Shown here piece by piece: positions 3,700 through 59,380 of a DNA stretch of 64,000 nucleotides; positions within the stretch are counted from its first letter, which is position 1; every line of letters begins with the position of its first letter. The notes under the pieces were generated by a model. It saw nothing but the letters and a program-made list of their open reading frames with translations, was not told the origin of the DNA and searched no databases. The translations under genes and the position numbers were made by a program. Source of the stretch: Candidatus Omnitrophota bacterium (GTDB lineage: Bacteria > Omnitrophota > Gorgyraeia > Zapsychrales > Zapsychraceae); assembly GCA_015233405.1 (NCBI GenBank), contig JADFXT010000004.1:36470-100469 (forward strand). Direction: 5' to 3'.

Positions 3700-4689
3700 A
3701 TGCGCCACTTCATCTATCTTTTCATTTTTCTTTTCATCTGCGTCGACAGAACACCCAGCTTCGCACAGTTTAAAAAAGGTGGATTTTATTCCGAGGCGAG
3801 AAACGGCAACATCTCCGCCGTTAAAAAACTCTTAAACGATAAAAAAAACTTGGAACCCGCGCACCTGAACGATGCCCTTCAGGCCGCGGTGACCGGTAAC
3901 CATTTTGAGATGGTCAAATTCCTCGTTAAGAAAGGCGCCAATCCCAATCTCATCAGCGTCGGGCCTTCCCCACTCTTAATTAACGCTATTATGTATGATT
4001 ATTTTGACAGCGCCCGAGCCTTGATCCTGACCGGCGCGGATGTCAATGTGCGCGGTTATAAACGCGTCATTTATGAATTTCAGATCAACTGGGACTGGAC
4101 GGCACTGATGTGCGCCGCTTATAAAGGACGGCTCGAATTAGTCAAACTCCTCGTCGATAAGAAGGCCGATCTTCATGCGCAAGGATGGTCGCAGGTGCCC
4201 GATGAATTGGAGACGGCTGCAGATATCGCCGCTTATTCCGGGCGCGTCGACGTCTTAGAATATTTGTTAAAAAAAGGTGTGGCTATTAACCCCAACACGA
4301 TTTTCAAAGCCGCCCGCGGAGGGCATACAAAGGTCGTCGAGCTTCTCTTAAAAAAAGGCGATCAGATCAACCGCCCCGGGTCTTTGCAGGGACGGACACT
4401 TTTGATCGAAGCCAGCTGGTGGGGGCATAAAGATTTAATCGAATATCTTCTTAAAAATGGCGCCGAGATCAATAAGCAGGACACTCAAGGATATACCGCG
4501 TTAAGTGAGGTGGTCGCCAGCACCAGGGAAGATTTTTCCAACCAACTTGAAATCGCGAAACTTCTCGTCGATAATGGGGCCAATGTTAATCTGTCGGACT
4601 TTTTTGGCATCACGCCTCTCATGCGCGCCACCAAAGCCGACGTTATCCAATTCCTGACCGAGCACGGCGCTAAAAACAACCAACCTTAA
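3700..4689 (+). CDS. Secreted ankyrin-repeat protein
   Basis: 329 aa. N-terminal hydrophobic signal-like segment (MRHFIYLFIFLFICVDRTPSFAQ), then about 8 ANK units (e.g. TALMCAAYKGRLELVKLLVDKKADLHA, GHTKVVELLLKKGDQIN, GHKDLIEYLLKNGAEIN). Confidence 0.85.
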   Translation: MRHFIYLFIFLFICVDRTPSFAQFKKGGFYSEARNGNISAVKKLLNDKKNLEPAHLNDALQAAVTGNHFEMVKFLVKKGANPNLISVGPSPLLINAIMYDYFDSARALILTGADVNVRGYKRVIYEFQINWDWTALMCAAYKGRLELVKLLVDKKADLHAQGWSQVPDELETAADIAAYSGRVDVLEYLLKKGVAINPNTIFKAARGGHTKVVELLLKKGDQINRPGSLQGRTLLIEASWWGHKDLIEYLLKNGAEINKQDTQGYTALSEVVASTREDFSNQLEIAKLLVDNGANVNLSDFFGITPLMRATKADVIQFLTEHGAKNNQP

Positions 4690-45511: not shown

Positions 45512-45540
45512 GATGAGGTTTCTAGGACGGGTAATGAAAA

Positions 45541-45615
45541 CGGGCTCGACGCGATTCGAACGCGCGATCTTCAGCGTGACAAGCTGACATGTTAACCAGA
45601 CTACACCACGAGCCC
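45541..45615 (-). tRNA. tRNA-Asp (anticodon GTC)
   Basis: The reverse complement GGGCTCGTGGTGTAGTCTGGTTAACATGTCAGCTTGTCACGCTGAAGATCGCGCGTTCGAATCGCGTCGAGCCCG folds as a cloverleaf. Acceptor GGGCTCG/CGAGCCC, anticodon stem TCAGC/GCTGA, loop TTGTCAC, T-loop TTCGAAT. No encoded CCA. Confidence 0.95.
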
Positions 45616-45681
45616 AAAAACCTGAAATTGGATATTAAGTCTAATATTGAAAAAGCAATTTGTAAAGAAAAATCTCTTTTG

Positions 45682-46356
45682 TTAACGTTTAATTCTTCCT
45701 AATAGCCTCAGCAATCCATCGAGAATAGTTAACGGATGCGGCGGACATCCCGGGATGTACAGATCCACCGGAACAATGGTTTCAAGGCCTTTCGAGGCTT
45801 CCGGACTCTCAGCAAAAAGGCCGCCGGAAATCGCACACGCACCGGAAGCAATCACGATCTTAGGCTCCGGCATGGCCTCGTACGTTTTTAAAAGCGCCTC
45901 TCGCATATTACGCACAATAGGACCAGTCACGATCATTCCGTCGGCATGCCGAGGAGAAGCGACAAACTGAATACCAAAACGGCTTAGATCAAAAACCACG
46001 GTATTAAGAACATTTAAATCCGCTTCACAGGCATTGCATCCGCCAGCGGAAACTTGCCGAAGTTTAAGCGACCGGCCGAACAATTGACGCATTTGATCGT
46101 TTAGCGCGCAAGCCAGGACTGTTTCGTTATTTTTTAGAACAAGGTCCCTGCGCTTTGCAGCGCTTAAGCGAAAATCGTTACTATATTGTATTCCATCGTC
46201 GGGAGCAAAGGTTATCTGGCCCAAATCTAAGGGACTGCCTTGACCCGCTATCATGGGCCGTCCACGATACCTCGACGGAAGCATCGGAGACTTTCCTCGC
46301 GAAAAAGAGATTGTCTTACAACCTTGTTTAAAGCGATTTATCAGGATATTAAGCAT
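45682..46356 (-). CDS. ehrS: Ehr-type complex small subunit (NuoB / HycG / EchC homologue)
   Basis: 224 aa. Retains the four [4Fe-4S] ligands: GGCNACE (CxxC), ASGACAISGG and YIPGCPPHP. Has an N-terminal extension of about 90 aa. Confidence 0.85.
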   Translation of the reverse strand: MLNILINRFKQGCKTISFSRGKSPMLPSRYRGRPMIAGQGSPLDLGQITFAPDDGIQYSNDFRLSAAKRRDLVLKNNETVLACALNDQMRQLFGRSLKLRQVSAGGCNACEADLNVLNTVVFDLSRFGIQFVASPRHADGMIVTGPIVRNMREALLKTYEAMPEPKIVIASGACAISGGLFAESPEASKGLETIVPVDLYIPGCPPHPLTILDGLLRLLGRIKR

Positions 46357-46365
46357 ATCAGCTTT

Positions 46366-47877
46366 CTATAAATCATGTCCACAATACGACAAATTAAAAC
46401 TTTTATTACACAGCGGAAAATCCGAGATCTCCTGGCCGCGCATCGCGAGGCTTAAACCAAACCAGTTATGGAACGATGGGTCTTTAATTTTATACCGCGC
46501 AAAACCACCATTTTCATCTGTAATCCCGACGTGCATAATCTCCCCTCGCCATCCTTCCACTAATGATAAGGCCAACGAATCCGGCTTAAGAGCTGGCGGT
46601 TTGACAAAAATCCCGCCTTGCGGCAAAGACGATAAAATTCTTAAAAGGAATTCCAAGGAGCGCACGACTTCCTGACGGCGGACCAAGGCCCGGCCGAAGA
46701 CATCACCGGTCGCGGCCAGGGAAATAGGAATATGCGAGAATTGCCAGAATCCCGACGAATAATCAATGCGGACATCACGCTCCAGACGACAGGCGCGACC
46801 CGCCGGGCCAACGAGACCAATCTTTTTCGCGTTCTCCATAGAGATCGCCCCAACACCTTCAAATCGCGCTAAGACCGAAGGCTTGGTAAATAATAAATTA
46901 CTCACATCTTCAAATTCTTTTTTATACCCTTTAAGTTTACGGCAGAACTCCTCCGCCATCTGACTATCGACATCAAATAACACGCCGCCGGGGCGACACA
47001 ATCCTTTGCCGAAGCGGTTCCCCGTTAACGCCAATAATAAATTCAAATAATCACCGCGCATCCGGCCGAAATATGCGCTCGTCGGCAAGAAGCCCACATC
47101 TGCGCTCATCGCGCCTAAATCTCCGACGTGATTTGAAAGCCGTTCCAGTTCAAGGGCAACTGCGCGAATCGCTTGGGCCTTGGGCGGAATGACGCATCCA
47201 GACAAAGATTCCACCACCTCACAATGGGCGATAGAATGCCCAACAGCGGTGTCTCCGGCGATGGCCTCGCTTAAAAGCGCGCTACGTTTAAAGTCCCGGC
47301 CTCGCATTAAAAGCTCTAGCCCGCGGTGTTGATATCCCAATTGAATCTCAAGGTGCATCACCTCTTCCCCATGGCACTGAAAACGAAAATGCCCCGGCTC
47401 AATAATACCGGCATGGACCGGGCCGACGCCGACCTCATGGACCTCCGGACTCTCGACGGCATAGAAAGAATAAGACCCCGGAATCGGCCGAGACGAAACA
47501 TCGGGCCAAATATCTGCCTTGCCCCGATAATTGGCGTGATAACGTAACGGCTTAAGCCATGGATGACCTTCCGGAATAATTGCCCACTGCTCCGCGACCT
47601 CACGCTCAAACCAATGCGCCTGAATTAAATCTTTGGTTAATGATTCATACTGTGGATGATCCGCCAGAATCCTCGTCGAAAAAACAGTAATTTCAGAATC
47701 TTCGTCCCACCCTAAAAAGGCAAACAGCCGCACACCGCCGTCGACTTCTTCATGTCCAAAGAAATTGACAAGCCTAGCACCTTCTTGGCATTGACTAATG
47801 ATTTTTTCACGGAACAGTTGCACACCCAAGACAGGGATCTCGGATAAAACTATGTTTGCCCCATTAAATAATTTCAT
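46366..47877 (-). CDS. ehrL: Ehr-type complex large subunit (fused NuoC-NuoD / HycE-like) lacking [NiFe] cysteine ligands
   Basis: 503 aa. VGVGPVHAGIIEPGHFRF and LGYQHRGLE are typical of group-4 hydrogenase and NuoD proteins. The N-terminal CxxC position reads SEAIAGDTAVGHS, and the C-terminal DPCxxCxxR position reads NLSYCGHDL at the extreme C-terminus. Confidence 0.85.
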   Translation of the reverse strand: MKLFNGANIVLSEIPVLGVQLFREKIISQCQEGARLVNFFGHEEVDGGVRLFAFLGWDEDSEITVFSTRILADHPQYESLTKDLIQAHWFEREVAEQWAIIPEGHPWLKPLRYHANYRGKADIWPDVSSRPIPGSYSFYAVESPEVHEVGVGPVHAGIIEPGHFRFQCHGEEVMHLEIQLGYQHRGLELLMRGRDFKRSALLSEAIAGDTAVGHSIAHCEVVESLSGCVIPPKAQAIRAVALELERLSNHVGDLGAMSADVGFLPTSAYFGRMRGDYLNLLLALTGNRFGKGLCRPGGVLFDVDSQMAEEFCRKLKGYKKEFEDVSNLLFTKPSVLARFEGVGAISMENAKKIGLVGPAGRACRLERDVRIDYSSGFWQFSHIPISLAATGDVFGRALVRRQEVVRSLEFLLRILSSLPQGGIFVKPPALKPDSLALSLVEGWRGEIMHVGITDENGGFARYKIKDPSFHNWFGLSLAMRGQEISDFPLCNKSFNLSYCGHDL

Positions 47878-47909: not shown

Positions 47910-49322
47910 TTATATCCTGACAAGCGCGACAGCGTCATTAAGAACTTTGGTTAAAATATCCGGCATCCATAAGCCCAACCCAAGCGAGATGATCATGGCG
48001 ACGGCAATGGCCGCGTTCATCAAGAAATTTTCCTTCGCAGGAAGAACGGGCTGCGTGGGCTTTCCCAAAGCCATCTCGAGGACGATTCGTAAAACGCCGA
48101 TAAACATCACCAAAATCCCGCCCAAATAGACAAGCGCCAAAAGATAATGCCCGGATAAAACCGCGGCATTAAGGATCATCAATTCGCTATGGAATGTTGC
48201 AAAAGGGAACATCCCCGTCCCGGCGAGAAATCCGGCGATCAGAAGCACGCCGGTGACCGGATACAGGTGAATGACACCTTTAACCTCTGTTGCGCGGGAG
48301 GAGCCGTATTTCTGGGCCAAAGAACCGGCGGCTAAAAAAGCCGCGACCTTGGCAACGGCATTATTGATCATATGAAAAAAAGCTCCAAAAATCCCGACCG
48401 GGCCTAATCCTAGCCCCAAAACGAGGATCCCCATATGCTCGACGGAAGAATAGGCGAACGCCCGCTTGATATTCCCTTCGCCCAAAATAAAAATCGCCGG
48501 AGCCACCAAGGATAGTGCCCCTGTGACAATCAAAATGGAGGCGTAAAATTCGCTTAACCCCGTCTTGGCACAAATCTGGCTGACACGAATTAATGCTAAA
48601 AAAGAACATTGTGTTAGAGCCCCTGACATCAACGCCGCAATCATCCCCGGTGCCTGTCCATAGGCCTCGGGTTTCCAACTGTGCATCGGCGCCAGCCCCA
48701 TTTTACATCCATACCCGACGAGCAAAAAAATAACGCTTAACTTAAGCCAATTGACCGACAACATTTTCGCCCCGCTTAAAAGCACAGGCAAAAGAAGCGT
48801 GTGCACATCATGCGCCGCAATGGCCAAAAAAAATGTTCCTAACAAAGCCAGGGCTATGCCGACGGAACAAACCAGTAAATATTTCCATGTGGCCTCCAGA
48901 CTTTCTGGGTTACGGTGAAAACTGATCAAAGGTGCGCTAAACAGCGTCGTCGCTTCGATCGCTACCCATAAAAGCCCCATGTGCCGGCTCACGGAAACAA
49001 GCGTCATCGTTGACAAAAGCAAAAGTAAACACGCCACAAACGTCCGGGTCCTTCGTTGTTCATGGTGGAAATATCCAACCATATAAACCGAGACGCTTAA
49101 AAAGAGGAAGCTGACAATGGATAGGACAATAAGGCCTATCGCATCGAGCATCAAGAATCCATTAATTTCCGACGGAGGATTGACCTTCCAAAATGAGGCG
49201 ACGATCATCGCATGGACCAAAGACACCGCGCACAAGATGCGTACCCTTAAACGACGCTCCATTGGAAGAAAAACAACTAACCCGCAAACAAAAGGAATTA
49301 AAATTAAAACAGATAGCATCAA
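47910..49322 (-). CDS. ehrD: Ehr-type antiporter-like subunit (NuoM/NuoN/HyfF-like)
   Basis: 470 aa with about 14 TM. SSVEHMGILVLGLG and FHMINNAVAKVAAFLAAG are typical of Mrp/NuoMN-type subunits. Confidence 0.85.
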   Translation of the reverse strand: MMLSVLILIPFVCGLVVFLPMERRLRVRILCAVSLVHAMIVASFWKVNPPSEINGFLMLDAIGLIVLSIVSFLFLSVSVYMVGYFHHEQRRTRTFVACLLLLLSTMTLVSVSRHMGLLWVAIEATTLFSAPLISFHRNPESLEATWKYLLVCSVGIALALLGTFFLAIAAHDVHTLLLPVLLSGAKMLSVNWLKLSVIFLLVGYGCKMGLAPMHSWKPEAYGQAPGMIAALMSGALTQCSFLALIRVSQICAKTGLSEFYASILIVTGALSLVAPAIFILGEGNIKRAFAYSSVEHMGILVLGLGLGPVGIFGAFFHMINNAVAKVAAFLAAGSLAQKYGSSRATEVKGVIHLYPVTGVLLIAGFLAGTGMFPFATFHSELMILNAAVLSGHYLLALVYLGGILVMFIGVLRIVLEMALGKPTQPVLPAKENFLMNAAIAVAMIISLGLGLWMPDILTKVLNDAVALVRI

Positions 49323-49972
49323 AGAGTCTCTCCCATCTTAGTCCTTCTTAGCGAAGCCGGCGCGTGTTCAAACTCCTCATTGATATGATTGACAACAATC
49401 GCCATGATAAAAACAGCGACGAAAATATCCAGCAAGATCCCCATTTCGATCAACGTCGGCATGGCATCAAACAAAGATAAGGCAAAAAGAAAAATCCCGT
49501 TTTCCATAACGAGATATCCCAAGACCTGGGTGATGGCCTTGGTCCGGGTGACGATAATCATAAATCCTAATAACACTGTCGAGAGCGAACAGGGAATGAC
49601 CAAATCCGATATGAGTTTTCCCGGCAATTTGAGAGACGACGCGACCCAAAAGGCGCCAGCGATCAAAAAAGTCCCGCAGATGATCGACGTGCCGAAGCCG
49701 ATAAATGGCTTGACCTCAGAACGCATCGACATATGCCGGATGGCCCAAAATAAAATATACGGTGCGACAATCGCCTTTAAAACCAGCGTGGCCAAAACAA
49801 GCATCACATCCCGTCCCGTGAGCGCATCCGCATGCAGGAAAAACGGAACAAAGCTTAAGACAAAAGATTGCACGACGAAGATATGAATCATACCGGTAAT
49901 CCGGTATGTGGCCAAAATCGACAAGGCTAAAAACACAACTAAAATGCAGCTCGTATCAATCCAGGTTGTCAT
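49319..49972 (-). CDS. ehrC: Ehr-type small membrane subunit (HyfE-like)
   Basis: 217 aa polytopic membrane protein, matching HyfE in size and position. 4-nt overlap with the next gene. Confidence 0.7.
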   Translation of the reverse strand: MTTWIDTSCILVVFLALSILATYRITGMIHIFVVQSFVLSFVPFFLHADALTGRDVMLVLATLVLKAIVAPYILFWAIRHMSMRSEVKPFIGFGTSIICGTFLIAGAFWVASSLKLPGKLISDLVIPCSLSTVLLGFMIIVTRTKAITQVLGYLVMENGIFLFALSLFDAMPTLIEMGILLDIFVAVFIMAIVVNHINEEFEHAPASLRRTKMGETL

Positions 49973-49994: not shown

Positions 49995-50918
49995 TTATCC
50001 TCTCCATAATCTTACGATAAAACCAAAAAATGCCAGCGCAAAGGCGATGAGAAGAAGATTCGTTACGCGATTAAGACGTAACCTCGCCATACCGGACTCG
50101 ACCAAACCGATAAAGATCGCAATTCCCAGCATCCCAACGACAAAAATCAAGGTGTCCATCAACCCATGCCCTGTGTGGATGGGCAAAAGAATCGGGACCA
50201 AAATGCCGCCGAAAAGAAAAAGCTTGGCCGCAGCGCCATAAAGCATGTAGGCCAAATCAACACCACTATGGTCTAAGATCATCACTTCATGAATCATGGT
50301 CAACTCCAAATGCGTCGACGGGTCATCTACGGGAATCCGGCAATTTTCCGCCAAGATCACAATAAAAAAACTCGAGACCACCAGAAGAAGCGTTGGTCCC
50401 ATCAACTTCCAAGAGAGCGGGATCTCTGCGCCGATCATGCCGGATAAAGATATCTGATGAGCCACCAAGACGAGCGTCACAAAATTCATAAAGATCGTCA
50501 GCTCCGATAAACAGGAAAAAAACGCCTCACGGCTCGCGCCCATCCCTTCAAAACTAGAACCGGTATCTAACGCCGCGACAATCATAAAGAACCGTGCTAA
50601 CCCAAAAAGATACGCCACAAGAAAAATGTCGCCGGAAAACCTCACCGGGGCTTTAAACGCGCCAAAAGGAATCATTAAAGATACCGCTAAGACAGAAGCG
50701 AAAACAACGATCGGTGCGGCGCGAAAAATCCACGTTGTCGTATGACTGTAGACACATTTCTTCTGAAAAAGTTTCGCCAGGTCAAAATAAGGCTGAAACA
50801 CCGACGGGCCGACCCTGCCACCGAAGAATGCCTTGACCCGGGTAATCACACCAAGGAAAAAAGGTGAAAACAAAAGCACCATCAGCCAATGCCATAAAAT
50901 AGAAAATATAATGTTCAC
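49995..50918 (-). CDS. ehrB: Ehr-type NuoH / HycD-like membrane subunit
   Basis: 307 aa with 8 TM. GTG start preceded by AAAGGA. Shows the NuoH/HycD pattern (FFGGRVGPSVFQPYFDLAKLF.K, EAFFSCLSE, ENCRIPVDDP, ELTMIHE). Confidence 0.85.
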   Translation of the reverse strand: MNIIFSILWHWLMVLLFSPFFLGVITRVKAFFGGRVGPSVFQPYFDLAKLFQKKCVYSHTTTWIFRAAPIVVFASVLAVSLMIPFGAFKAPVRFSGDIFLVAYLFGLARFFMIVAALDTGSSFEGMGASREAFFSCLSELTIFMNFVTLVLVAHQISLSGMIGAEIPLSWKLMGPTLLLVVSSFFIVILAENCRIPVDDPSTHLELTMIHEVMILDHSGVDLAYMLYGAAAKLFLFGGILVPILLPIHTGHGLMDTLIFVVGMLGIAIFIGLVESGMARLRLNRVTNLLLIAFALAFFGFIVRLWRG

Positions 50919-50931
50919 GAGGTCCTTTCGC

Positions 50932-52776
50932 CTATCCTCTCATTTTCCAAACCAGTAAAAAAATGAGAAATACAAATATATAGATCAAATAGATCTGCGT
51001 ATACCGAATGCTTTTTTCATCAATTCTTTTAGACAAATTTCTCAAACGGGTAAAAACCGGGCGGAACAAATAATCTTCAGACGCGTCATGAACATGAGAC
51101 GACATTTGGGCCTTTTGAGGAAATTCTCCGGAAACCTCTCCCCCATAGCGTCGGAACAATAAAGTATTTCTAAAATATTGAACAATCGGACGGGCAAATG
51201 ACGAAGAGGTGTACTGCAATTTTGAAGAAAGCTGTGTGAACCCGCAGCTCCAGGTCTCGCTCGTCGGCATAGGCTCTTTACCCAAAAGCCATCGACGGAC
51301 AAAAACCAACATAATGATTAGCGCCAAAAGCACAAAGGCCGTGCCATTGATGATCGAAAGGGGATTAAGGATTTTCCCTAAATAAAACGCCGACGGCTCC
51401 ATATGCGCCAAAAAATTCCCACCCATAAAAGTTAGTCGGGCCATGACAGCAGGCATAAGGCCGATCCAAATGCATAATCCCGCTAGAAGGAACATCGGCG
51501 CCATCATCCACGCAGAAACTTCTTCTGTTCCTTTTGTTTCAATACTCGAACGTGGATTCCCTAAAAAAACAATCCCATAGACTTTGGTAAAACAGGCCAA
51601 GGCGAGCGCACCGATTAAGGCCAGCGATAGAATCCCTAAAACAAAAAACACAACACCCTGTAATGGGAGTGCCAAGACGCCCTGAAAAAGTCCGAAGTAA
51701 ATCATAAACTCGCTGATAAAACCATTAAATAACGGCAGCCCACAGATCGAAAGCGCACCGACGAGAAATAGAGTGCTGGTTAGAGGCATGATCTTCGCTA
51801 CCCCTCCCAATTTATCGATTTCGCCGGTGTGCATCTTTTGAATCACCGCGCCTGCTCCTAAAAATAAAAGCCCTTTAAAGATCGCGTGATTAATGACATG
51901 AAGAAGTGCTCCGGCAAATCCTAAAGCTGCGATAAAAGGCTGGTGATAGCTTCTGCCTAATAATCCGACGCCAAGACCTAAGGCAATGATCCCGATATTC
52001 TCGATGCTGTGATACGCCAAAAGTCTTTTGATCTCGTGCTGGCCTAAGGCATAAAGAACACCCATCACGCCGGAGACAATCCCGATGGTCAAAAGAACAT
52101 ATCCGCACCAATTAGGGAAGATTCCCATGATCCATAAGACGCGGCAGATGCCGTAAATCCCGATTTTAATGGTAACACCCGATAAAAACGCAGAAACATG
52201 CGACGGCGCCGCTGGATGGGCATGCGGCAGCCAGATATGCATGGGCAAAAACCCAGCCTTGACGCCGGACCCAATAATCGCCAGAAAAAAAATAATGCCT
52301 GCCAGCGCCGGAGAAAAAGTTGTGTGGGCCATCACAGTAAAATCCATGGAACCGGCCGTGCGCGCCATCAGAAAGAACATTAAAAACAGGCAGAACGTCC
52401 CGCAGTGCGTGGCAATAAGATATAAGAATCCAGCTCGACGAACAGAAGGCTTCTCATCGTGAAAGACAATCAAAAAATAAGTCGCAATCGACATCAATTC
52501 CCATGCGCACAAAAACAAAATCACATTATTAGCCGTAACAACCAACCCGATCGCCACCGCCAATAACAGAAAGAAGAAAGCGTGCGCTTTAAGCGATCGC
52601 GCCCCTTGATAGGAACGCATATACCCGACGCCATAAATCCCGGCGCAGAGTGTCAGAATAATAATGGCCGTCAGAAATATCAGGCTTAACGGGTCAAGCT
52701 TAAGCGTAAACTCGCCAAAAGGCACATGCCATGGGAATTGAATGATTTTTTCCATATTCTCAACCTTCACAATCAC
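50932..52776 (-). CDS. ehrA: Ehr-type antiporter-like subunit (NuoL / HyfB / HycC-like)
   Basis: 614 aa. WELMSIATYFLI, WLPHAHPAAPSHVSAFLSG, LLAYHSIENIG, HVINHAIFKGLLFLGAG. The ORF track start is GTG 52776, a 4-nt overlap with the upstream gene. ATG 52755, preceded by AAGGTTGAG, is an alternative. Confidence 0.85.
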   Translation of the reverse strand: MIVKVENMEKIIQFPWHVPFGEFTLKLDPLSLIFLTAIIILTLCAGIYGVGYMRSYQGARSLKAHAFFFLLLAVAIGLVVTANNVILFLCAWELMSIATYFLIVFHDEKPSVRRAGFLYLIATHCGTFCLFLMFFLMARTAGSMDFTVMAHTTFSPALAGIIFFLAIIGSGVKAGFLPMHIWLPHAHPAAPSHVSAFLSGVTIKIGIYGICRVLWIMGIFPNWCGYVLLTIGIVSGVMGVLYALGQHEIKRLLAYHSIENIGIIALGLGVGLLGRSYHQPFIAALGFAGALLHVINHAIFKGLLFLGAGAVIQKMHTGEIDKLGGVAKIMPLTSTLFLVGALSICGLPLFNGFISEFMIYFGLFQGVLALPLQGVVFFVLGILSLALIGALALACFTKVYGIVFLGNPRSSIETKGTEEVSAWMMAPMFLLAGLCIWIGLMPAVMARLTFMGGNFLAHMEPSAFYLGKILNPLSIINGTAFVLLALIIMLVFVRRWLLGKEPMPTSETWSCGFTQLSSKLQYTSSSFARPIVQYFRNTLLFRRYGGEVSGEFPQKAQMSSHVHDASEDYLFRPVFTRLRNLSKRIDEKSIRYTQIYLIYIFVFLIFLLVWKMRG

Positions 52777-53453
52777 TGCCTGACGATTTTCGATTCAACG
52801 ACCTGAAATGCTGCCAAGACCTCTTCCTGATTCCGATAACCATGCAAAGCCGTTTTAAAATGTTCATCCTGTAAACAAAACGCCAGACGAGACAATAAAG
52901 ACAAATGCTCTTTAAAGGAGGCAGACAAGATCACAAAAAGGGTATGAATATTTTGACCGTCTAAAGCGGCAAAATCAATGGGCGTTTCCAGAAAAAACAA
53001 CCCCACCATCGGTTCCATGCCGGCCAAGACAACAGGATGTTTAATGTGCGGAATGGCGATGCCGTCCCCGACGCCGGTTGTGCCCATCTGTTCACGGGAC
53101 AAAAGCATGTCTTTTAGAAATAGCCGCGGAATATGTATTGGTAATGGGAGGAATTCCAAAATCTTTTCAAGGATATCTTCTCGGCGATTTCCCTTAATGT
53201 CCCAATAAACCCCGCCGCGCATCAAAGCCGGCGTTAAGAGATCCTGGCCCAAGCGTTTTTTCTCACAAAGCTTAAGCGCGCCCGGTGTTAAAGGAATACG
53301 CGACTTCAGCGCCCATTCCAAGACTTCGATAGGATTAAAATAATATTGGTCATCAGCTTTCACGGCCGGCATTTTCCCGACGTTAAGCCAATGATAGAGG
53401 GTTTTTTCTTCGACCTCAAAGGCTTCTTGAACTTCATGAAAAGTCAGTTGCAT
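52773..53453 (-). CDS. HTH (excisionase/MerR-like) + PTS EIIA type-2 (PtsN-like) domain protein
   Basis: 226 aa. N-terminal TFHEVQEAFEVEEKTLYHWLNVGKMPAVK (HTH_17-like). The C-terminal EIIA-2 pattern has conserved His in GDGIAIPHIKHP and LFVILSA. Confidence 0.8.
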   Translation of the reverse strand: MQLTFHEVQEAFEVEEKTLYHWLNVGKMPAVKADDQYYFNPIEVLEWALKSRIPLTPGALKLCEKKRLGQDLLTPALMRGGVYWDIKGNRREDILEKILEFLPLPIHIPRLFLKDMLLSREQMGTTGVGDGIAIPHIKHPVVLAGMEPMVGLFFLETPIDFAALDGQNIHTLFVILSASFKEHLSLLSRLAFCLQDEHFKTALHGYRNQEEVLAAFQVVESKIVRQ

Positions 53454-53473
53454 ATTAAACGCCCCTGGTAAGA

Positions 53474-55126
53474 CTAATTCTTTTCTTGGAGTAGCTCATT
53501 GGCCCGAGCGATGGCCGGCTTCATTGCCGAGAAGACATTATCTTCTCCTATCATATCATAAAGGTGGCTCTTGACCATTTCATTGAGCGGCTGAACATGA
53601 AGCCCGGTGACAATCAAATGAATACGGCTGTTTTTGCACTTCTCATAAAAACTCCTTAAAGCATGCATACCCGTCGAGTCAATCAAAGGAACATCACGGA
53701 ACCGTAAGATACGCACCCCTGGTTTTTCATTGACCTGCCGGTCAATTTCATCAAAATGGTTCGCGGCACCAAAAAAAAGCGGCCCGTTGATTTCATAAAC
53801 CCGCACGCCCGGAGGCACGACAATTGCCGACAAGGGCTGGTCCTCGCCATCCTCATTTTCAAATTCCTTGGCCATGACTTTAATCGTGGTGGCGTCCGAC
53901 ATACGTTTCATAAAAATGAATGCCGACATAACAACCCCGACTTCGATCGCCGCATTTAAATCGACAAACACCGTAAGAAAAAATGTCGTCAAAAGTACCA
54001 TGCGCCCGCCGGTGGACCACTTCAGTAATTCACGAAACGAACGCCATTCGCTCATATGATACGCCACAACGACCAATATCCCGGCGAGGCATGCCAGCGG
54101 CACAAACTTAATCCAGGCGCCTAGAAATAGCATAATCAAAAGTACCGTTATCGCATGGACAATGCCAGCAACCGGAGTTCTTCCGCCGTTTTTAATATTC
54201 GTCACGGTCCGGGCAATCGCGCCCGTTGCCGGAATGCCGCCAAAAAGCGCAGAACCAATATTAGCAACTCCCTGCCCGATCAATTCAGTGTTCGAACGAT
54301 GTTTTCCGCCGATCATCCCGTCGGAAACGATCGCGGAAAGAAGTGATTCAATGGCCCCTAAAATGGCAATGGTAAAAGCCGGCTGAAAAAGTTCCTGGAT
54401 CCTTTTAAGCCCGAACGCGGGAAAATGCGGGGCTGGTAATGTGTGCGGCAAATCCCCAAAACGGCTGCCGATCGTCTCAACGGGAAGACGAAAAAATGCC
54501 GACAGTGCAGAAACAGAAATTAGGGCCACCAGCGCACCTGGGATTTTTCTCGAAACCTTCGGCCAAATGGCAATGATCAAAACGGTCAACATGGCTAACA
54601 TAAAAGCGTCATAATTGATGGTCCCAATATTTCCAATAAACAGACGCCATTTCTCCAAAAATTCAGCAGGAATTTTTCCAGTCGTTAATCCCAAGAAATC
54701 TTTCACCTGGGACGAAAAAATAATCATCGCAATTCCGCTCGTAAATCCGACAATGACCGAATGCGGAATAAATTTAACAATGGATCCAAACCGCACCACT
54801 CCCATAATGATCAAGATGACACCGGCCATCAACGTCGCGATCACAAGTCCGTCTATCCCATATTTTTGAACAATACCGTAAACAATAACGACAAATGCGC
54901 CCGTCGGGCCTCCGATCTGCACGCGGCTTCCGCCTAAAACGGAAATAAAAAACCCGGCGATAATGGCGGTAAAAAGTCCTTTATCCGGTGAAACCCCCGA
55001 GGCAATGGCAAATGCGATCGCCAAAGGAATCGCAACAACGCCGACAATCATGCCAGCGATACAATCCGTGATAAATTTTTCTTTAGAATAATCTTTAAGA
55101 CAAGTGAATAACTTTGGAGCAAACAT
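53474..55126 (-). CDS. SulP/SLC26-family anion transporter with C-terminal STAS domain
   Basis: 550 aa. DCIAGMIVGVVAIPLAIAFAIASGVSP, the GGPTGAFVVIVYG blocks, and a C-terminal STAS domain (VRVYEINGPLFFGAANHF...ILRFRDVPLIDSTGMHAL). Confidence 0.9.
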   Translation of the reverse strand: MFAPKLFTCLKDYSKEKFITDCIAGMIVGVVAIPLAIAFAIASGVSPDKGLFTAIIAGFFISVLGGSRVQIGGPTGAFVVIVYGIVQKYGIDGLVIATLMAGVILIIMGVVRFGSIVKFIPHSVIVGFTSGIAMIIFSSQVKDFLGLTTGKIPAEFLEKWRLFIGNIGTINYDAFMLAMLTVLIIAIWPKVSRKIPGALVALISVSALSAFFRLPVETIGSRFGDLPHTLPAPHFPAFGLKRIQELFQPAFTIAILGAIESLLSAIVSDGMIGGKHRSNTELIGQGVANIGSALFGGIPATGAIARTVTNIKNGGRTPVAGIVHAITVLLIMLFLGAWIKFVPLACLAGILVVVAYHMSEWRSFRELLKWSTGGRMVLLTTFFLTVFVDLNAAIEVGVVMSAFIFMKRMSDATTIKVMAKEFENEDGEDQPLSAIVVPPGVRVYEINGPLFFGAANHFDEIDRQVNEKPGVRILRFRDVPLIDSTGMHALRSFYEKCKNSRIHLIVTGLHVQPLNEMVKSHLYDMIGEDNVFSAMKPAIARANELLQEKN

Positions 55127-55172
55127 CGTGGACCCTTTCTAGAGAAGCTTTCCTTCCCCTTAAAATGAAAGA

Positions 55173-55193
55173 CCCTGATTTCAAAACTCAGGG
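55173..55193 (-). promoter_or_regulatory. Hairpin in SulP leader (weak terminator/attenuator candidate)
   Basis: On the minus strand, CCCTGA-GTTTTGAAA-TCAGGG followed by TCTTTCATTTT. A second CCCTGA copy lies about 45 nt upstream in the same leader (GGCTCCCTGAAG). Confidence 0.35.
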
Positions 55194-55282
55194 CCTTATT
55201 CTCTTTTTAAATTTTTTTCTGATAACTAACTTCAGGGAGCCTGGGTGGTATCCTGCAAAAGTTTAATCTCTACTTAAAAAAT

Positions 55283-55310
55283 ATTATAACTCGATTCTGT
55301 TTGCTGTAAA
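55283..55310 (-). promoter_or_regulatory. Candidate sigma70 promoter for SulP-EIIA-Ehr operon
   Basis: On the minus strand, TTTACA - 16 nt - TATAAT. It lies about 155 nt upstream of the SulP ATG (55126) and just after the stop of the upstream 80-aa ORF. Confidence 0.5.
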
Positions 55311-55333: not shown

Positions 55334-55576
55334 TCATTCAACTAAAAAAACAACTTTTGTGGAAGGCTCAATAATACAAACTCCGTCTTGAAAACGGTGG
55401 TCTGGTCCTGCCATAACGGCGATGCCTTTTTTAATATCAAATAAATTCGGGCCGACCTTCTTACAAAACAGAATACAACGAGACCCTTTGTCATCTTTCA
55501 AGGCAGACATTTTACCCCGAAGAAACTGTTCTTTATAACGGCTAACAATACCTTCTTGGACCGAGACCTTGTCCAT
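55334..55576 (-). CDS. Hypothetical small protein
   Basis: 80 aa ORF with a good SD (AAGGAG, 6-nt spacing). No recognisable family. Confidence 0.5.
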   Translation of the reverse strand: MDKVSVQEGIVSRYKEQFLRGKMSALKDDKGSRCILFCKKVGPNLFDIKKGIAVMAGPDHRFQDGVCIIEPSTKVVFLVE

Positions 55577-57750: not shown

Positions 57751-58305
57751 TTATTTCTGGATTTGCTCTGGCTTCGGATTTCCAGCGGCATCAGGCGGCT
57801 TACCTTTCCATTTTCCCTTCATTCCTTCGCCTTTATGTCCGAAGTGCTCTCTTTTTTGTTCCATTTTCGCCATAAACTTCTTAAATTGTTCGGGCGTTAA
57901 TATTTTTCGTACCTCTAATATGCTGGCAAGCCTCTGATCAAGCATCTGGGCCTGCGCGGCTTTTAAATCCGCCTCAATACGATTCACTTGCTCCATATTT
58001 AACGGGTCCTTTTGAAGTTCTTGACGGAGCAACGACATTTTATCCTTCATATTTTGACCCAAGGCTTTCATTTGGTCCCGGTTCTTACTCTTGTTGGCCT
58101 CAAGCGCCTTCTGTTGTTCTTCGGTCAAATTCAAATCCTTATAAAACTGCCCTTTCTTTCCATGCTTTTCTTTCATCGGTCCTTTTTCCGGTACAACAGC
58201 TTTATCCGGCGTAGAAGCTGGTGCCGGTGTGGCCGCATAAGTCATGGCTGGCGCAAAAACCAATGCCGCTATCAGCAAAAATATTGTTACGTTGATTTTT
58301 TTCAT
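57751..58305 (-). CDS. Periplasmic Spy/CpxP-family (LTxxQ) chaperone-like protein
   Basis: 184 aa with a signal peptide and two LTxxQ motifs (LNLTEEQQKAL, ILTPEQFKKF) in a K/E/Q-rich helical protein. Confidence 0.8.
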   Translation of the reverse strand: MKKINVTIFLLIAALVFAPAMTYAATPAPASTPDKAVVPEKGPMKEKHGKKGQFYKDLNLTEEQQKALEANKSKNRDQMKALGQNMKDKMSLLRQELQKDPLNMEQVNRIEADLKAAQAQMLDQRLASILEVRKILTPEQFKKFMAKMEQKREHFGHKGEGMKGKWKGKPPDAAGNPKPEQIQK

Positions 58306-58326
58306 GACATCTCCTCCTTTTAAATG

Positions 58327-58824
58327 TTATAAAAAATATTCTTCAATGGCTGTTCCAAGCCCTTTTCCCTCATTAATAATGGTATCTTCCGATTCCTCTG
58401 ATAAATAAGAAAGATATTCTGTTTGGTCACCAGACGTTGTCTTGACCACAGATAAATTCCCGGTCTTCAAATGAGCCACAACCCCAAAAAGAATAATGAA
58501 CATGGCCACGGTCGCAAAAACAAACGCGGGTTTAGGAATATAAAAAGCCGGTTTCCAATTTAACCAAAATTTTTCAAGAAAACTTTCCTTCTGTTCTTGG
58601 CCAGAAAGAATGGCGTTCTTTATTCGTGGCCAGAGAAATGACGGCGGTGTCGCGTTCTGAGCTTGCTCAAACGGTTCGATAACCGTTTTCTGTGCGGCAA
58701 TAGAAAACTCCCGGCACTGGACACACCCAGCTAAATGGAGCTCAATATCTTTCTTTTGCTTGGCATTCATCTGAGCGTCTAAATAATCCGTCAAAATGGA
58801 TTCCTGAACTTTTTCACAGCGCAT
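58327..58824 (-). CDS. Anti-sigma factor (zf-HC2 type) with one TM
   Basis: 165 aa. N-terminal C..V......D........K..IE.HLAGCVQC (H-x3-C-x2-C) and a central TM (FVFATVAMFIILFGVVA). 11-nt overlap with the sigma gene. Confidence 0.8.
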   Translation of the reverse strand: MRCEKVQESILTDYLDAQMNAKQKKDIELHLAGCVQCREFSIAAQKTVIEPFEQAQNATPPSFLWPRIKNAILSGQEQKESFLEKFWLNWKPAFYIPKPAFVFATVAMFIILFGVVAHLKTGNLSVVKTTSGDQTEYLSYLSEESEDTIINEGKGLGTAIEEYFL

Positions 58825-59380
58825 TTTTTTGTGCCTCTTTTTTTACGTTCATCAAGGCTTCTCTGGCCCGTTTGAGCCGTGAACGAACGGTATTAACATT
58901 GATCTTCAAAACATCCGCAATTTCCTGATAACTTAATCCCTGCATATTTCGTAAAACCACACATGACCGCTGGTCCGGATTTAAAGATTGTAAAAGCCAT
59001 GTGATCATTTTTTCATTGTGTTCCTTCTCCATTTGAGCTTCTGCCGCATGCGCCGTCGCCACGGGATTTAAGCGTTCATCATATTCGACCGTCTGCGACC
59101 TTTCCTTGGATGTCTTTTTAACGCGATTGAGCGCACAGTTAACGGCGATCCTGTAAACCCATGTTTTAAAAGACGACTGAAAACGAAATTCTTTTAAACT
59201 ATGATAAACATTTAAGAAAACTTCCTGCGTAACCTCTTCAGCGTCTTCTCTATTACTGACAATGCGGAAAGCGACATTATAAACAAATTGCGACGTCGAT
59301 TTATAAATCGATTCAAACGCGTTAAGGTCGCCTTCCGACGCTTTCTTTAAAATATCTTCCAACGGATCCGACATAACCAC
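58814..59380 (-). CDS. ECF-type RNA polymerase sigma-70 family factor
   Basis: 188 aa. Region 2 (DAEEVTQEVFLNVYHSL..F...S.FKTWVYRIAVN) and region 4 (QGLSYQEIADVLKINVNTVRSRLKRARE). Confidence 0.9.
   Translation of the reverse strand: MVMSDPLEDILKKASEGDLNAFESIYKSTSQFVYNVAFRIVSNREDAEEVTQEVFLNVYHSLKEFRFQSSFKTWVYRIAVNCALNRVKKTSKERSQTVEYDERLNPVATAHAAEAQMEKEHNEKMITWLLQSLNPDQRSCVVLRNMQGLSYQEIADVLKINVNTVRSRLKRAREALMNVKKEAQKNAL

What the first reader, a model, noticed from the sequence alone, without database searches (positions are those of the whole stretch)
52773..55126. SulP anion transporter and an HTH+EIIA(Ntr)-like protein are co-transcribed and tightly coupled with the Ehr genes
Gene layout:
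- The 550-aa SulP/STAS transporter stops 20 nt before the 226-aa HTH-EIIA gene.
- The EIIA gene's stop overlaps the first Ehr gene by 4 nt, or precedes it by 17 nt, depending on start choice.
- All eight genes are co-directional behind one candidate promoter.
- The EIIA domain keeps the phosphorylatable His (GIAIPH) and is fused to a short excisionase/MerR-like HTH. No EI or HPr is present in the window.

Established knowledge:
- SulP members transport sulfate, bicarbonate and other anions.
- As I recall, the PTS EIIA type-2 fold is grouped structurally with the cytoplasmic regulatory domain of the band-3 anion exchanger.
- Antiporter-like complex-I modules energise inorganic-carbon uptake in other systems: cyanobacterial NDH-1 with CupA/B, and DabAB.

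Inference: this could be an anion (possibly bicarbonate) handling system. A non-hydrogenase Ehr module would supply or consume ion-motive force, and the EIIA-like protein would regulate it. I do not know of a described SulP-EIIA-Ehr operon.
Basis: inference. Interest (0 to 1): 0.7.

Follow-up and report, generated by a model that had tools for sequence, protein, structure and literature searches.

The report
PtsN-like regulator leads Ehr operon
An Omnitrophota operon joins a SulP anion transporter and a DNA-binding, PtsN-like regulator to an Ehr complex (a complex-I relative of unknown function); the regulator, not the transporter, is the constant partner of Ehr across many phyla, giving a first regulatory handle on this orphan complex.

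Summary
The gene layout is as described. On the minus strand lie SulP (55126-53474), a 226-aa HTH_17+EIIA-2 protein (53453-52773) and six Ehr genes (52755-45682). Gaps are 20 and 17 nt. One strong promoter sits upstream (55310-55283) and no credible internal terminator was found. The genome is an Omnitrophota MAG.

- **HTH-EIIA to Ehr is the invariant pair.**
  - It holds in 30 of 30 related Omnitrophota species loci.
  - It holds in 15-17 of about 32 distant Ehr operons (EhrL 42-57% identical).
  - It holds in 6 of 6 sampled family members: Lentisphaeria, two Planctomycetota families, Binatia, Spirochaetaceae and one unnamed MAG.
  - Both PtsN histidines are conserved.
  - Many non-Omnitrophota promoters carry a shared GGACA / GTCC-N6-GTCC element.
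- **SulP is facultative.**
  - It is present in 19 of 31 Omnitrophota relatives and looks ancestral there, with several losses.
  - SulP or STAS genes sit beside only about 8-10% of distant Ehr operons, in varied positions.
  - It scores nearer DauA (C4-dicarboxylates, 514 bits) than BicA (277 bits).
  - No carbonic-anhydrase-like partner recurs.

Verdict: co-transcription and linkage are supported, but a bicarbonate machine is not. The most likely reading is a phospho-controlled regulator dedicated to Ehr, with SulP as an accessory. I found no prior description of this link.

The parts
55283..55310 (-). Candidate sigma-70 promoter of the operon (TTTACA-16-TATAAT, 11/12)
   Evidence: Best hit of the promoter scan. 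A TTTACA-N16/17-TATAAT element is also seen upstream of SulP in at least 11 of 18 related loci.
55170..55207 (-). 10-bp stem-loop in the roughly 150-nt 5' leader. Not a recognised RNA element.
   Evidence: Read from the sequence. The leader's fold z-score is -1.0. There is no Rfam hit at E<=1. It is not conserved in related loci.
53474..55126 (-). SulP/SLC26 anion transporter with C-terminal STAS domain (550 aa)
   Evidence: Pfam Sulfate_transp 1e-84 and STAS 6e-14. NCBIfam DauA 513.9 bits (cutoff 614), sulP 376.5 (cutoff 380.45), BicA 277.5 (cutoff 880). PDB matches SLC26Dg 1.5e-52 and BicA 1e-51.
52773..53453 (-). HTH_17 (residues 3-50) plus PtsN-like EIIA-2 (residues 87-216) protein, 226 aa. 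Proposed Ehr-dedicated regulator.
   Evidence: Pfam. PtsN alignment. AF2 model with pLDDT 87. Foldseek best hits are PtsN structures. It is the leader gene of ehr operons in many lineages.
53046..53048 (-). Codon of His136, the counterpart of phospho-His73 of E. coli PtsN (GIAIPH)
   Evidence: Alignment to 1a6j. The residue is invariant in alignments A1 and A3.
50932..52755 (-). EhrA, a NuoL/HyfB-like antiporter-like subunit (start taken as ATG 52755)
   Evidence: Pfam Proton_antipo_M 5e-57. NCBIfam hydrogenase 4 subunit B 565 bits, below cutoff. Start chosen by homology.
49995..50918 (-). EhrB, a NuoH/HyfC-like membrane subunit
   Evidence: Pfam NADHdh 1e-32.
49319..49972 (-). EhrC, a HyfE-like membrane subunit
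   Evidence: NCBIfam hydrogenase 4 membrane subunit 7e-25. Weak Oxidored_q2 match.
47910..49322 (-). EhrD, a NuoN/HyfF-like antiporter-like subunit
   Evidence: Pfam Proton_antipo_M 1e-38. NCBIfam hydrogenase 4 subunit F 297 bits, below cutoff.
46366..47877 (-). EhrL, a NuoC/D-HycE-like large subunit without NiFe cysteine ligands
   Evidence: Best PDB match is HycE (7z0s), 8e-50. RVCGICGFAH is replaced by EAIAGDTAVGHS, and DPCYSC by NLSYCG. The same substitute motif is seen family-wide.
45682..46356 (-). EhrS, a NuoB-like small subunit. It keeps the four N2-type cysteines but has lost the N-terminal 2x[4Fe-4S] domain present in most Ehr lineages.
   Evidence: Pfam Oxidored_q6 4e-31. Alignment with 15 other EhrS sequences.
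45540..45616 (-). tRNA-Asp immediately downstream, which marks the end of the ehr genes
   Evidence: ARAGORN and Rfam.

Best explanation
This is an eight-gene operon, sulP / HTH-EIIA / ehrABCDLS, in an Omnitrophota bacterium.

**Shown**
- The six Ehr genes encode a membrane complex related to complex I and group-4 hydrogenases.
- The complex has no NiFe site. It keeps one N2-type FeS cluster.
- By eye, both antiporter-like subunits keep the charged-residue motifs of ion-translocating NuoL/M/N.
- The small HTH+EIIA protein is the conserved first gene of ehr operons in many phyla. Its PtsN-type phospho-histidine site is intact.

**Inferred**
- The HTH-EIIA protein is a transcription regulator dedicated to Ehr.
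- Its DNA binding at the operon promoter is switched by phosphorylation of His136, through a PTS(Ntr)-type relay encoded elsewhere in the genome.
- Ehr expression would therefore follow carbon, nitrogen or energy status. In this genome SulP expression would follow too.
- SulP is an accessory gene. It is ancestral in this Omnitrophota clade, often lost, and sometimes recruited independently beside other Ehr operons.
- This suggests that an ion-coupled SLC26 anion transporter and the ion-translocating Ehr work in the same physiological setting.
- The SulP substrate is unresolved. The nearest characterised relative is the C4-dicarboxylate carrier DauA, not the bicarbonate carrier BicA.
For: - **Operon structure.** Layout, spacing and promoter are confirmed.
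- **Omnitrophota relatives.**
  - HTH-EIIA is directly followed by EhrA in 30 of 30 species-level loci.
  - The stop and start overlap, abut or lie at most 8 nt apart in 22 of 30.
- **Distant Ehr operons.**
  - The same leader gene precedes 15-17 of about 32 assessable operons with EhrL 42-57% identical.
  - It was the commonest neighbour family there.
- **Family-wide sampling.**
  - Six of 6 sampled members of the HTH-EIIA family head ehr operons in other phyla.
  - The family holds at least 2191 clusters.
- **Phospho-site.** His136 and His183 are invariant and align with PtsN His73 and His120.
- **Candidate operator.**
  - GTCC-N6-GTCC lies 43-57 nt upstream of the start codon in 7 of 19 non-Omnitrophota promoters.
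  - The background rate is 0.028 per kb.
  - Related GGACA / TGTC[CT] variants occur in 3 more.
- **SulP.**
  - It is present in 19 of 31 relatives, basal in the EIIA tree, with several losses.
  - An orthologous SulP (57% identical) sits in the same position in a far lineage, L113, where EhrL is 42% identical.
  - Other SulP subfamilies or STAS proteins sit beside L037, L046, L053, L066 and L074.
  - DauA scores above BicA.
Against: - No DNA binding, phosphorylation or transcript has been measured.
- The GTCC element is absent from the window's own promoter and from the Omnitrophota clade, so the operator here is unknown.
- No EI or HPr/NPr is present in the 64-kb window, and the rest of the genome could not be inspected.
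- Translational coupling with EhrA would equally suit a stoichiometric protein partner.
- About half of the distant Ehr operons lack the HTH-EIIA gene.
- SulP/STAS adjacency outside this clade is only about 8-10%.
Confidence: 0.5

Rival explanations
1. The HTH-EIIA protein is a protein-binding regulatory subunit, not a transcription factor. Like PtsN acting on TrkA or KdpD, it would dock on the cytoplasmic face of Ehr, and here possibly on the SulP STAS domain. It would gate ion or anion flux according to its phosphorylation state.
For: - Stop/start overlap or abutment with ehrA is seen in most loci.
- The gene is always the first of the operon and never divergent.
- Known PtsN proteins act by protein-protein contact (established knowledge).
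- STAS-only proteins or SulP recur beside Ehr.
- The AF2 model has pTM 0.84, suggesting a fixed two-domain body.
Against: - The N-terminal domain is a conserved excisionase/MerR-type HTH.
- A conserved repeat element overlaps the promoters of many of these operons.
- The protein diverges faster than the Ehr subunits: 25% against 35-42% identity in L113. That is more typical of regulators than of core subunits.
Confidence: 0.2
2. SulP, EIIA and Ehr form one energy-coupled anion uptake machine, possibly for bicarbonate. Ehr would supply or consume the ion-motive force, in analogy to DabAB or to NDH-1 with CupA/B.
For: - SulP-EIIA-Ehr is ancestral in this clade and recurs in L037 and L113.
- A SulP fused to a P-II domain follows EhrS in L053.
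- An ACT-malic enzyme, which releases or fixes CO2, replaces or precedes SulP in one subclade.
- The Omnitrophota EhrS has lost its ferredoxin-like input domain, and one lineage (L115) has lost all FeS cysteines. A core function that does not need electron input is therefore conceivable.
Against: - SulP is absent from 12 of 31 close relatives and from most other Ehr operons.
- All 6 sampled operons in other phyla lack it.
- The BicA model scores 277 bits against 514 for DauA.
- No carbonic-anhydrase-like, DabA-like or Cup-like gene is in the operon or among the recurrent neighbours.
- The malic enzyme fits a C4-dicarboxylate theme at least as well.
Confidence: 0.12
3. SulP is only a historical passenger. 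It was captured once at the operon front in an Omnitrophota ancestor and is being lost, with no functional tie to Ehr. Only HTH-EIIA-Ehr is a functional unit.
For: - The EIIA tree suggests one ancestral state followed by at least 4 losses or replacements.
- An ArsR gene is inserted between SulP and EIIA in 10 loci.
- SulP is absent from 6 of 6 sampled operons in other phyla.
Against: - SulP or STAS genes of different subfamilies sit beside distant Ehr operons in different positions and orientations. These are L053, L066, L074, L037 and L046.
- That gives about 5-7 cases where roughly 0.3 would be expected. The expectation is my own rough estimate from typical gene counts.
- The SulP in this clade is more conserved (74-81% identity) than the Ehr subunits.
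Confidence: 0.15

Closest known systems
Ehr (Ech/energy-converting hydrogenase-related) complexes, e.g. Geobacter sulfurreducens GSU0739-0745 and the Nitrospira and Margulisbacteria Ehr
   Same: - Same subunit set: NuoL-like, NuoH-like, HyfE-like, NuoN-like, a NuoCD-like large subunit and a NuoB-like small subunit.
- The large subunit lacks the CxxC NiFe ligands.
- The function is unknown in the literature (PMC6349859, PMC12342949, PMC10284858, PMC7894505).
   Different: - The small subunit here has lost the NuoI-like 2x[4Fe-4S] domain that the literature and most lineages show (PMC6349859 Supplementary Note 4).
- The operon is led by SulP and an HTH-EIIA gene. The papers I could search do not mention either.
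PtsN / EIIA(Ntr) of the nitrogen-related PTS (E. coli 1a6j; Burkholderia 3urr, 4gqx; Neisseria 2a0j)
   Same: - The EIIA-2 fold, with these structures as best sequence and structure matches.
- The GIAIPH phospho-His and the second conserved His.
- PtsN is a regulator of ion-transport systems (established knowledge).
   Different: - It is fused to an N-terminal HTH_17 domain.
- It scores below the PtsN equivalog cutoffs: 68.5 against 138.7 bits.
- It is not next to rpoN, hpf or npr, and no HPr or EI lies nearby.
- It is encoded inside a bioenergetic operon.
DauA (YchM) and BicA, characterised bacterial SulP/SLC26 transporters
   Same: Sulfate_transp plus STAS architecture. The whole protein aligns end to end with both NCBIfam models.
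   Different: - It is below both equivalog cutoffs, with DauA 514 of 614 bits and BicA 277 of 880 bits.
- The substrate therefore cannot be assigned.
- Neither DauA nor BicA is known, to my knowledge, to be encoded with a complex-I-like module.
DabAB / MpsAB and cyanobacterial NDH-1 with CupA/B (antiporter-like modules that energise inorganic-carbon uptake)
   Same: PF00361 antiporter-like subunits are linked genetically to an inorganic- or organic-anion uptake function. This is an analogy only.
   Different: - No DabA, Cup or carbonic-anhydrase-like subunit is present.
- A full NuoB/CD/H-like module is present here.
- The transporter here is a separate SLC26 protein.
PRD-containing PTS-controlled transcription regulators with an EIIA-2-like domain (MtlR, LicR, ManR type)
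   Same: An HTH plus an EIIA-2 domain whose phosphorylation controls transcription (established knowledge). This is the functional model I infer here.
   Different: - No PRD or EIIB-like domains, and only 226 aa.
- The HTH is of the excisionase/MerR (HTH_17) type.

Membership tests
Ehr complex | Group-4-hydrogenase/NuoD-like large subunit that lacks the four NiFe-binding cysteines | tested here: met
   In the alignment to HycE (7z0s_E), C-G-I-C is replaced by A-G-D-T and DPCYSC by NLSYCG. The same motif occurs in about 95 of 103 family representatives.
Ehr complex | NuoB-like small subunit, NuoH-like subunit, HyfE-like subunit and at least two antiporter-like subunits in one operon | tested here: met
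   Pfam and NCBIfam hits for all six genes.
Ehr complex | Small subunit fused to a NuoI-like 2x[4Fe-4S] domain (reported for Ehr in PMC6349859 Supplementary Note 4) | tested here: not met
   The N-terminal region is present but both cysteine motifs are deleted in the window, L001 and L036. They are present in L039, L042, L053, L064, L116 and L118. I treat this as a clade-specific variant, not as grounds for exclusion.
PtsN / EIIA(Ntr) | EIIA type-2 fold with the phosphorylatable His in G-x-A-x-P-H | tested here: met
   PF00359 at 4e-20. Alignment to 1a6j including His73 and His120. Foldseek best hits are PtsN, with TM up to 0.83 normalised to the target.
PtsN / EIIA(Ntr) | Score above the NCBIfam PtsN equivalog cutoff; a stand-alone protein of about 150-160 aa | tested here: not met
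   TIGR01419 scores 68.5 against 138.7, and NF008145 scores 61.8 against 221. The protein is 226 aa with an extra HTH domain.
PtsN / EIIA(Ntr) | Phosphorylated by NPr/HPr from EI(Ntr)/EI | not testable with these tools
   No HPr/NPr or EI is in the window or in the 31 related loci. The whole genome was not available.
SulP / SLC26 | Sulfate_transp membrane domain plus a C-terminal STAS domain | tested here: met
BicA bicarbonate transporter | Score at or above the NCBIfam BicA equivalog cutoff | tested here: not met
   277.5 bits against a cutoff of 880.
DauA C4-dicarboxylate transporter | Score at or above the NCBIfam DauA equivalog cutoff | tested here: not met
   513.9 bits against a cutoff of 614. 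It is the best-scoring model but stays below threshold.
DAB / Cup-type inorganic-carbon pumps | A carbonic-anhydrase-like subunit (DabA or CupA/B) partnered with the antiporter-like subunit | tested here: not met
   No such domain occurs in the operon. None occurs among the recurrent neighbour families of 80 Ehr loci, which were only HTH-EIIA, SulP/STAS and a histidine kinase.
PRD-type PTS regulators (MtlR/LicR) | PRD domains between the HTH and the EIIA-like domain | tested here: not met
   Only HTH_17 and PTS_EIIA_2 were detected.

The most novel reading that the evidence does not exclude
SulP, the phospho-EIIA protein and Ehr form one physically coupled, energy-driven uptake system for an anion (bicarbonate or a C4-dicarboxylate). 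In the Omnitrophota the Ehr module has shed its ferredoxin-type electron input. It would act as a largely redox-independent ion-translocating engine, gated by EIIA/STAS contacts. That would be the first assigned function for an Ehr complex, and a third independent case, after Cup and Dab, of complex-I modules being recruited for solute uptake.
Probability: 0.1. Interest if true: 0.85.

Novelty: new variant of a known kind. Interest (0 to 1): 0.6.

Why it matters
[quoted passage not shown] Their function has stayed unknown since they were first noted, as papers from 2019 to 2026 still say.

A dedicated PtsN-like HTH regulator with an intact phospho-site leads ehr operons from Omnitrophota to Planctomycetota, Lentisphaeria, Spirochaetota and Binatia. 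This gives three things to test:
- a concrete signal, the PTS(Ntr)-type phosphorylation state;
- a candidate operator;
- a recurrent partner, SLC26/STAS.

It also exposes natural variants with a reduced set of FeS clusters. These bear on whether Ehr needs electron transfer at all.

Tried and rejected
1. **Riboswitch or attenuator in the 150-nt leader.** The fold z-score is -1.0, there is no Rfam hit and the leader is not conserved in relatives. Rejected.
2. **Internal promoter or terminator splitting the operon.** Only 9/12 promoter-like hits inside coding sequence and weak hairpins inside genes were found. The promoter-like count is within about 2 sd of shuffles. The terminator-like count is about 3 sd above, which I attribute to T-rich membrane-protein coding sequence. 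Rejected as evidence.
3. **PTS partners nearby.** None were found in the window or the relatives, although the controls worked.
4. **Assigning the SulP substrate from PDB matches.** SLC26Dg and BicA tie. Only the NCBIfam scores discriminate, and both are below cutoff.
5. **The GTCC-N6-GTCC element in the window or the Omnitrophota clade.** Absent. The TTTACATAT...CATATAAT promoter pattern seen there could be an operator or simply the local promoter consensus. Unresolved.
6. **Literature.**
   - Three searches were wasted because 'Ehr' matched electronic health records and 'EhrL' matched Ehrlichia, and one exact phrase found nothing.
   - 'GSU0738' gave nothing.
7. **Correlation between the number of HTH-EIIA paralogues and the number of EhrA copies.** Not consistent.

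Full report
**Observation**

- On the minus strand, a 550-aa SulP/STAS transporter (55126-53474) is followed after 20 nt by a 226-aa protein (53453-52773). This protein has an N-terminal HTH_17 domain and a C-terminal PTS EIIA-2 domain.
- Six genes related to complex I and hydrogenase-4 follow, down to 45682.
- The EIIA stop overlaps a GTG at 52776 and lies 17 nt before an ATG at 52755.
- Comparison with 30 homologous junctions shows that EhrA proteins start M-x(6-9)-PW-x-VPFG. The ATG, with its 17-nt gap, is therefore the likelier start.
- Gaps inside the ehr genes run from -4 to 32 nt.
- The best sigma-70-like site in 11 kb (TTTACA-16-TATAAT, 11/12) lies upstream of SulP at 55310-55283. Other promoter-like or terminator-like hits are weak and sit inside coding sequence.
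- A tRNA-Asp ends the cluster.
- The 150-nt leader has one hairpin. It is not unusually structured (z = -1.0), matches no Rfam family and is not conserved.
- The rest of the window encodes housekeeping and sugar-utilisation genes. No PTS, hydrogenase-maturation, formate-dehydrogenase or carbonic-anhydrase genes were seen among the roughly 40 ORFs scanned.
- tblastn finds no HPr/NPr or EI in the window. The same queries do find them next to canonical ptsN genes in control loci.

**Identity of the parts**

The source is a Candidatus Omnitrophota MAG; the identical protein lies on a 169-kb contig.

*Large subunit (EhrL)*
- It aligns best with E. coli HycE.
- Both cysteine pairs that hold the NiFe site are replaced: RVCGICGFAH becomes EAIAGDTAVGHS, and DPCYSC becomes NLSYCG.
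- In a search of 1.84 billion cluster representatives, 884 relatives reach E<=1e-30.
- Of 103 full-length proteins among the best 150, only 6 keep CxxC motifs.
- Nearly all the others share the substitute pattern E-x-[IV]-[AS]-G-D-[ST]-x(3)-H and FNLSY[CSA]GxDL.
- This is a bona fide Ehr complex, and the former NiFe pocket is itself under conservation.

*Small subunit (EhrS)*
- It keeps the four N2-type cysteines.
- In most Ehr lineages this subunit carries an N-terminal two-cluster ferredoxin domain.
- The window and its close relatives have deleted both cysteine motifs.
- One distant lineage (L115) has lost every cluster cysteine.

*Antiporter-like subunits*
- By eye, EhrA keeps the TM5 Glu (AWELMS), TM7 Lys (GVKAGFLPMHIWLP), TM8 Lys (TIKIG) and TM12 Lys (HAIFKGLLFL).
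- EhrD keeps three of the four.
- This rests on my recall of the NuoL/M/N motifs and was not computed.

*EIIA domain*
- It aligns with E. coli PtsN, including phospho-His73 (His136 here) and His120 (His183).
- An AlphaFold model has pLDDT 87 and pTM 0.84.
- The model matches PtsN structures first and SLC4/band-3 cytoplasmic domains next.

*SulP*
- It matches SLC26Dg and BicA equally well in the PDB.
- In NCBIfam it scores 514 bits on the DauA model and 277 bits on the BicA model. Both are below their cutoffs.

**Comparative genomics within the Omnitrophota**

A scan of one genome per GTDB species found 31 Omnitrophota loci encoding the HTH-EIIA protein at 62-71% identity.
- In all 30 loci that extend downstream, ehrA follows at once.
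- Stop and start overlap in 8 loci, abut in 9, and lie 1-8 nt apart in 5 more.
- SulP lies directly upstream in 19 of 31 loci.
- In 10 of those 19, a 111-aa ArsR-family gene sits between SulP and EIIA.
- Four loci have ArsR but no SulP.
- One subclade has an ACT-malic-enzyme gene in the SulP position. In L005 that gene lies in front of SulP.
- A few loci have unrelated or divergent neighbours.
- A neighbour-joining tree of the EIIA proteins places the SulP-first layout on the basal branches and in the outgroup L037. SulP therefore looks ancestral, with at least four losses or replacements.
- Two loci carry an extra stand-alone EIIA-2 gene just upstream of SulP.
- Three loci carry a second, tandem set of Ehr membrane genes.

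**Comparative genomics beyond the clade**

A metagenome scan with a diverse EhrL alignment returned 80 loci with EhrL 39-74% identical.
- About 30-32 of these have enough upstream sequence to assess. In 15-17 of them, a gene of 224-244 aa (some called longer from upstream start codons) with the same HTH+EIIA architecture directly precedes the first ehrA. Both histidines are conserved.
- Clustering all flanking ORFs gave only three recurrent neighbour families: HTH-EIIA in 14 loci, SulP/STAS in 7, and a histidine kinase in 5.
- A profile of the distant HTH-EIIA proteins finds at least 2191 clusters. Source names include Tepidisphaeraceae, Phycisphaeraceae, Lentisphaeria, Victivallaceae, Binatia, Spirochaetaceae and Rectinemataceae.
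- Six of these proteins were looked up. All six are the first gene of an ehr operon with an unrelated or divergent gene upstream, and none has SulP.
- The HTH-EIIA family therefore appears to be specific to Ehr. About half of the Ehr operons sampled have it.

**A candidate operator**

- In 7 of 19 non-Omnitrophota promoters, the exact pattern GTCC-N6-GTCC lies 43-57 nt upstream of the HTH-EIIA start codon, always in the same orientation.
- Across 1.59 Mb of loci the pattern occurs 44 times on both strands, or 0.028 per kb. About 0.05 hits would be expected in these 19 short regions.
- Three further promoters have one-base variants.
- Several promoters add an inverted GGACA a few bases after a TTGACA -35 box.
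- The element overlaps the -35/-10 spacer or the start region.
- Excisionase-type HTH proteins typically bind direct repeats (established knowledge).
- I infer that the co-conserved HTH-EIIA binds here.
- The element is absent from the window and from the Omnitrophota clade. Promoters there share a TTTACA(TAT)...(CA)TATAAT pattern instead, and the HTH sequence differs there too.

**What the SulP link amounts to**

- Outside the clade, full-length SulP genes lie next to Ehr in five loci:
  - L037 and L113, in the order SulP-EIIA-Ehr;
  - L066, as SulP-Ehr without EIIA;
  - L053, after ehrS, with the SulP fused to a P-II domain;
  - L074, downstream on the opposite strand.
- Stand-alone STAS proteins follow ehrS in L037 and L046, and lie on the opposite strand in L047.
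- In L113 the SulP is 57% identical to the window's, while EhrL is 42% and EIIA 25% identical. The others are 27-41% identical, so they belong to different subfamilies.
- With usable flanks the rate is 2 of 26 upstream and 3 of 44 downstream.
- From typical gene counts I estimate an expectation near 0.3. This is a rough estimate, not a computation.
- The link is real but has low penetrance. It says nothing about the substrate.
- The DauA-over-BicA score and the malic-enzyme neighbours point at least as much to C4-dicarboxylates as to bicarbonate.
- No carbonic-anhydrase-like partner was found.

**Most likely mechanism**

- *Shown:* this is one compact operon; HTH-EIIA and Ehr form an invariant pair across phyla; the phospho-site is intact; the complex is not a hydrogenase.
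- *Inferred:*
  - HTH-EIIA is the Ehr-specific transcription regulator.
  - It is switched by His136 phosphorylation from a PTS(Ntr)-type relay encoded elsewhere.
  - In this genome it also controls SulP, because the only good promoter lies upstream of sulP.
- *Main rival:* the protein acts by direct contact with Ehr and/or the STAS domain.

**Comparison with what is known, and novelty**

- Ehr complexes are known, and papers up to 2026 repeatedly describe them as being of unknown function.
- The NuoB-NuoI and NuoC-NuoD fusions are described in PMC6349859 Supplementary Note 4.
- Nothing in the searchable library links Ehr to an EIIA-type protein or to SulP. The founding Ehr papers are not in that library, so an earlier mention cannot be excluded.
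- I class this as a new variant of a known kind. It is an Ehr operon with a conserved regulatory leader gene that I could not find described, with an accessory SLC26 transporter, and with a small subunit stripped of its ferredoxin domain.

Noticed in passing
L001:9657-9992 and the equivalent position in L002, L007, L009, L011, L013, L016, L017, L026, L031; without SulP in L008, L014, L019, L024: A 111-aa ArsR-family (HTH_5) gene sits between SulP and HTH-EIIA in many relatives but is absent from the window. Most of these loci share the promoter pattern ATTTACATAT-N11/12-CATATAAT upstream of SulP.
   Followed up: partly
L004:8310-9758, L006:8569-10020, L018:288-1721, L020:8547-10010, L005:6625-8088, L036:2772-4220: An ACT-domain malic enzyme lies directly upstream of HTH-EIIA in one Omnitrophota subclade, and upstream of SulP in L005. 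This is a C4-dicarboxylate/CO2 theme next to Ehr.
   Followed up: partly
window 45682-46356; compare L116:19280-20137 and L118:17139-17912: EhrS of the window clade has deleted both CxxCxxCxxxCP motifs of the N-terminal ferredoxin-like domain found in most Ehr lineages. L115 has lost all FeS cysteines, including the N2-type ones. L037 and L059 show partial loss.
   Followed up: partly
window 46366-47877 (EhrL residues 204-215 and 494-503): The former NiFe-ligand positions are not random. E-x-[IV]-[AS]-G-D-[ST]-x3-H and FNLSY[CSA]GxDL are conserved across representatives at 32-58% identity, which suggests a different conserved site.
   Followed up: partly
L053:12342-14294: A SulP transporter fused to a C-terminal P-II domain lies immediately after ehrS in a high-GC lineage.
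   Followed up: no
L037:8471-8890, L046:3043-3411, L047:9806-10339(-): Stand-alone STAS-domain proteins (122-177 aa) are encoded right after ehrS.
   Followed up: no
L005:15943-20674, L010:17297-19964, L018:7411-12195; also L004, L006 and L036: A second, roughly 50%-identical set of Ehr membrane genes (A'B'C'D') lies in tandem with, or replaces, the first set in some Omnitrophota. In L005 and L018 the first set is not followed by its own L/S genes.
   Followed up: no
L007:6576-7088, L030:7745-8230: An extra stand-alone EIIA-2 gene with no HTH lies just upstream of SulP in two relatives.
   Followed up: no
L038:332-1824, L039:1032-2617, L121:10001-11564: Two tandem HTH-EIIA paralogues precede the ehr genes in some lineages.
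   Followed up: no
43-57 nt upstream of the HTH-EIIA start codon in L038, L050, L052, L059, L069, L116, L118 (about position 9953 in L116 and L118); variants in L119-L121: A conserved GTCC-N6-GTCC direct repeat, often with an inverted GGACA after the -35 box, overlaps the promoters of HTH-EIIA-ehr operons from several phyla.
   Followed up: partly
window 55334-55576 (-): An 80-aa ORF directly upstream of the operon promoter has no Pfam or NCBIfam match.
   Followed up: partly
window 3700-4689 (+): A protein made of ankyrin repeats (329 aa), which is unusual for bacteria.
   Followed up: no
window 57751-59380 (-): An ECF sigma factor (58814-59380), a 165-aa ORF with no match (possibly an anti-sigma factor) and an LTXXQ/Metal_resist periplasmic protein form an envelope-stress-like trio upstream of the operon region.
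   Followed up: no
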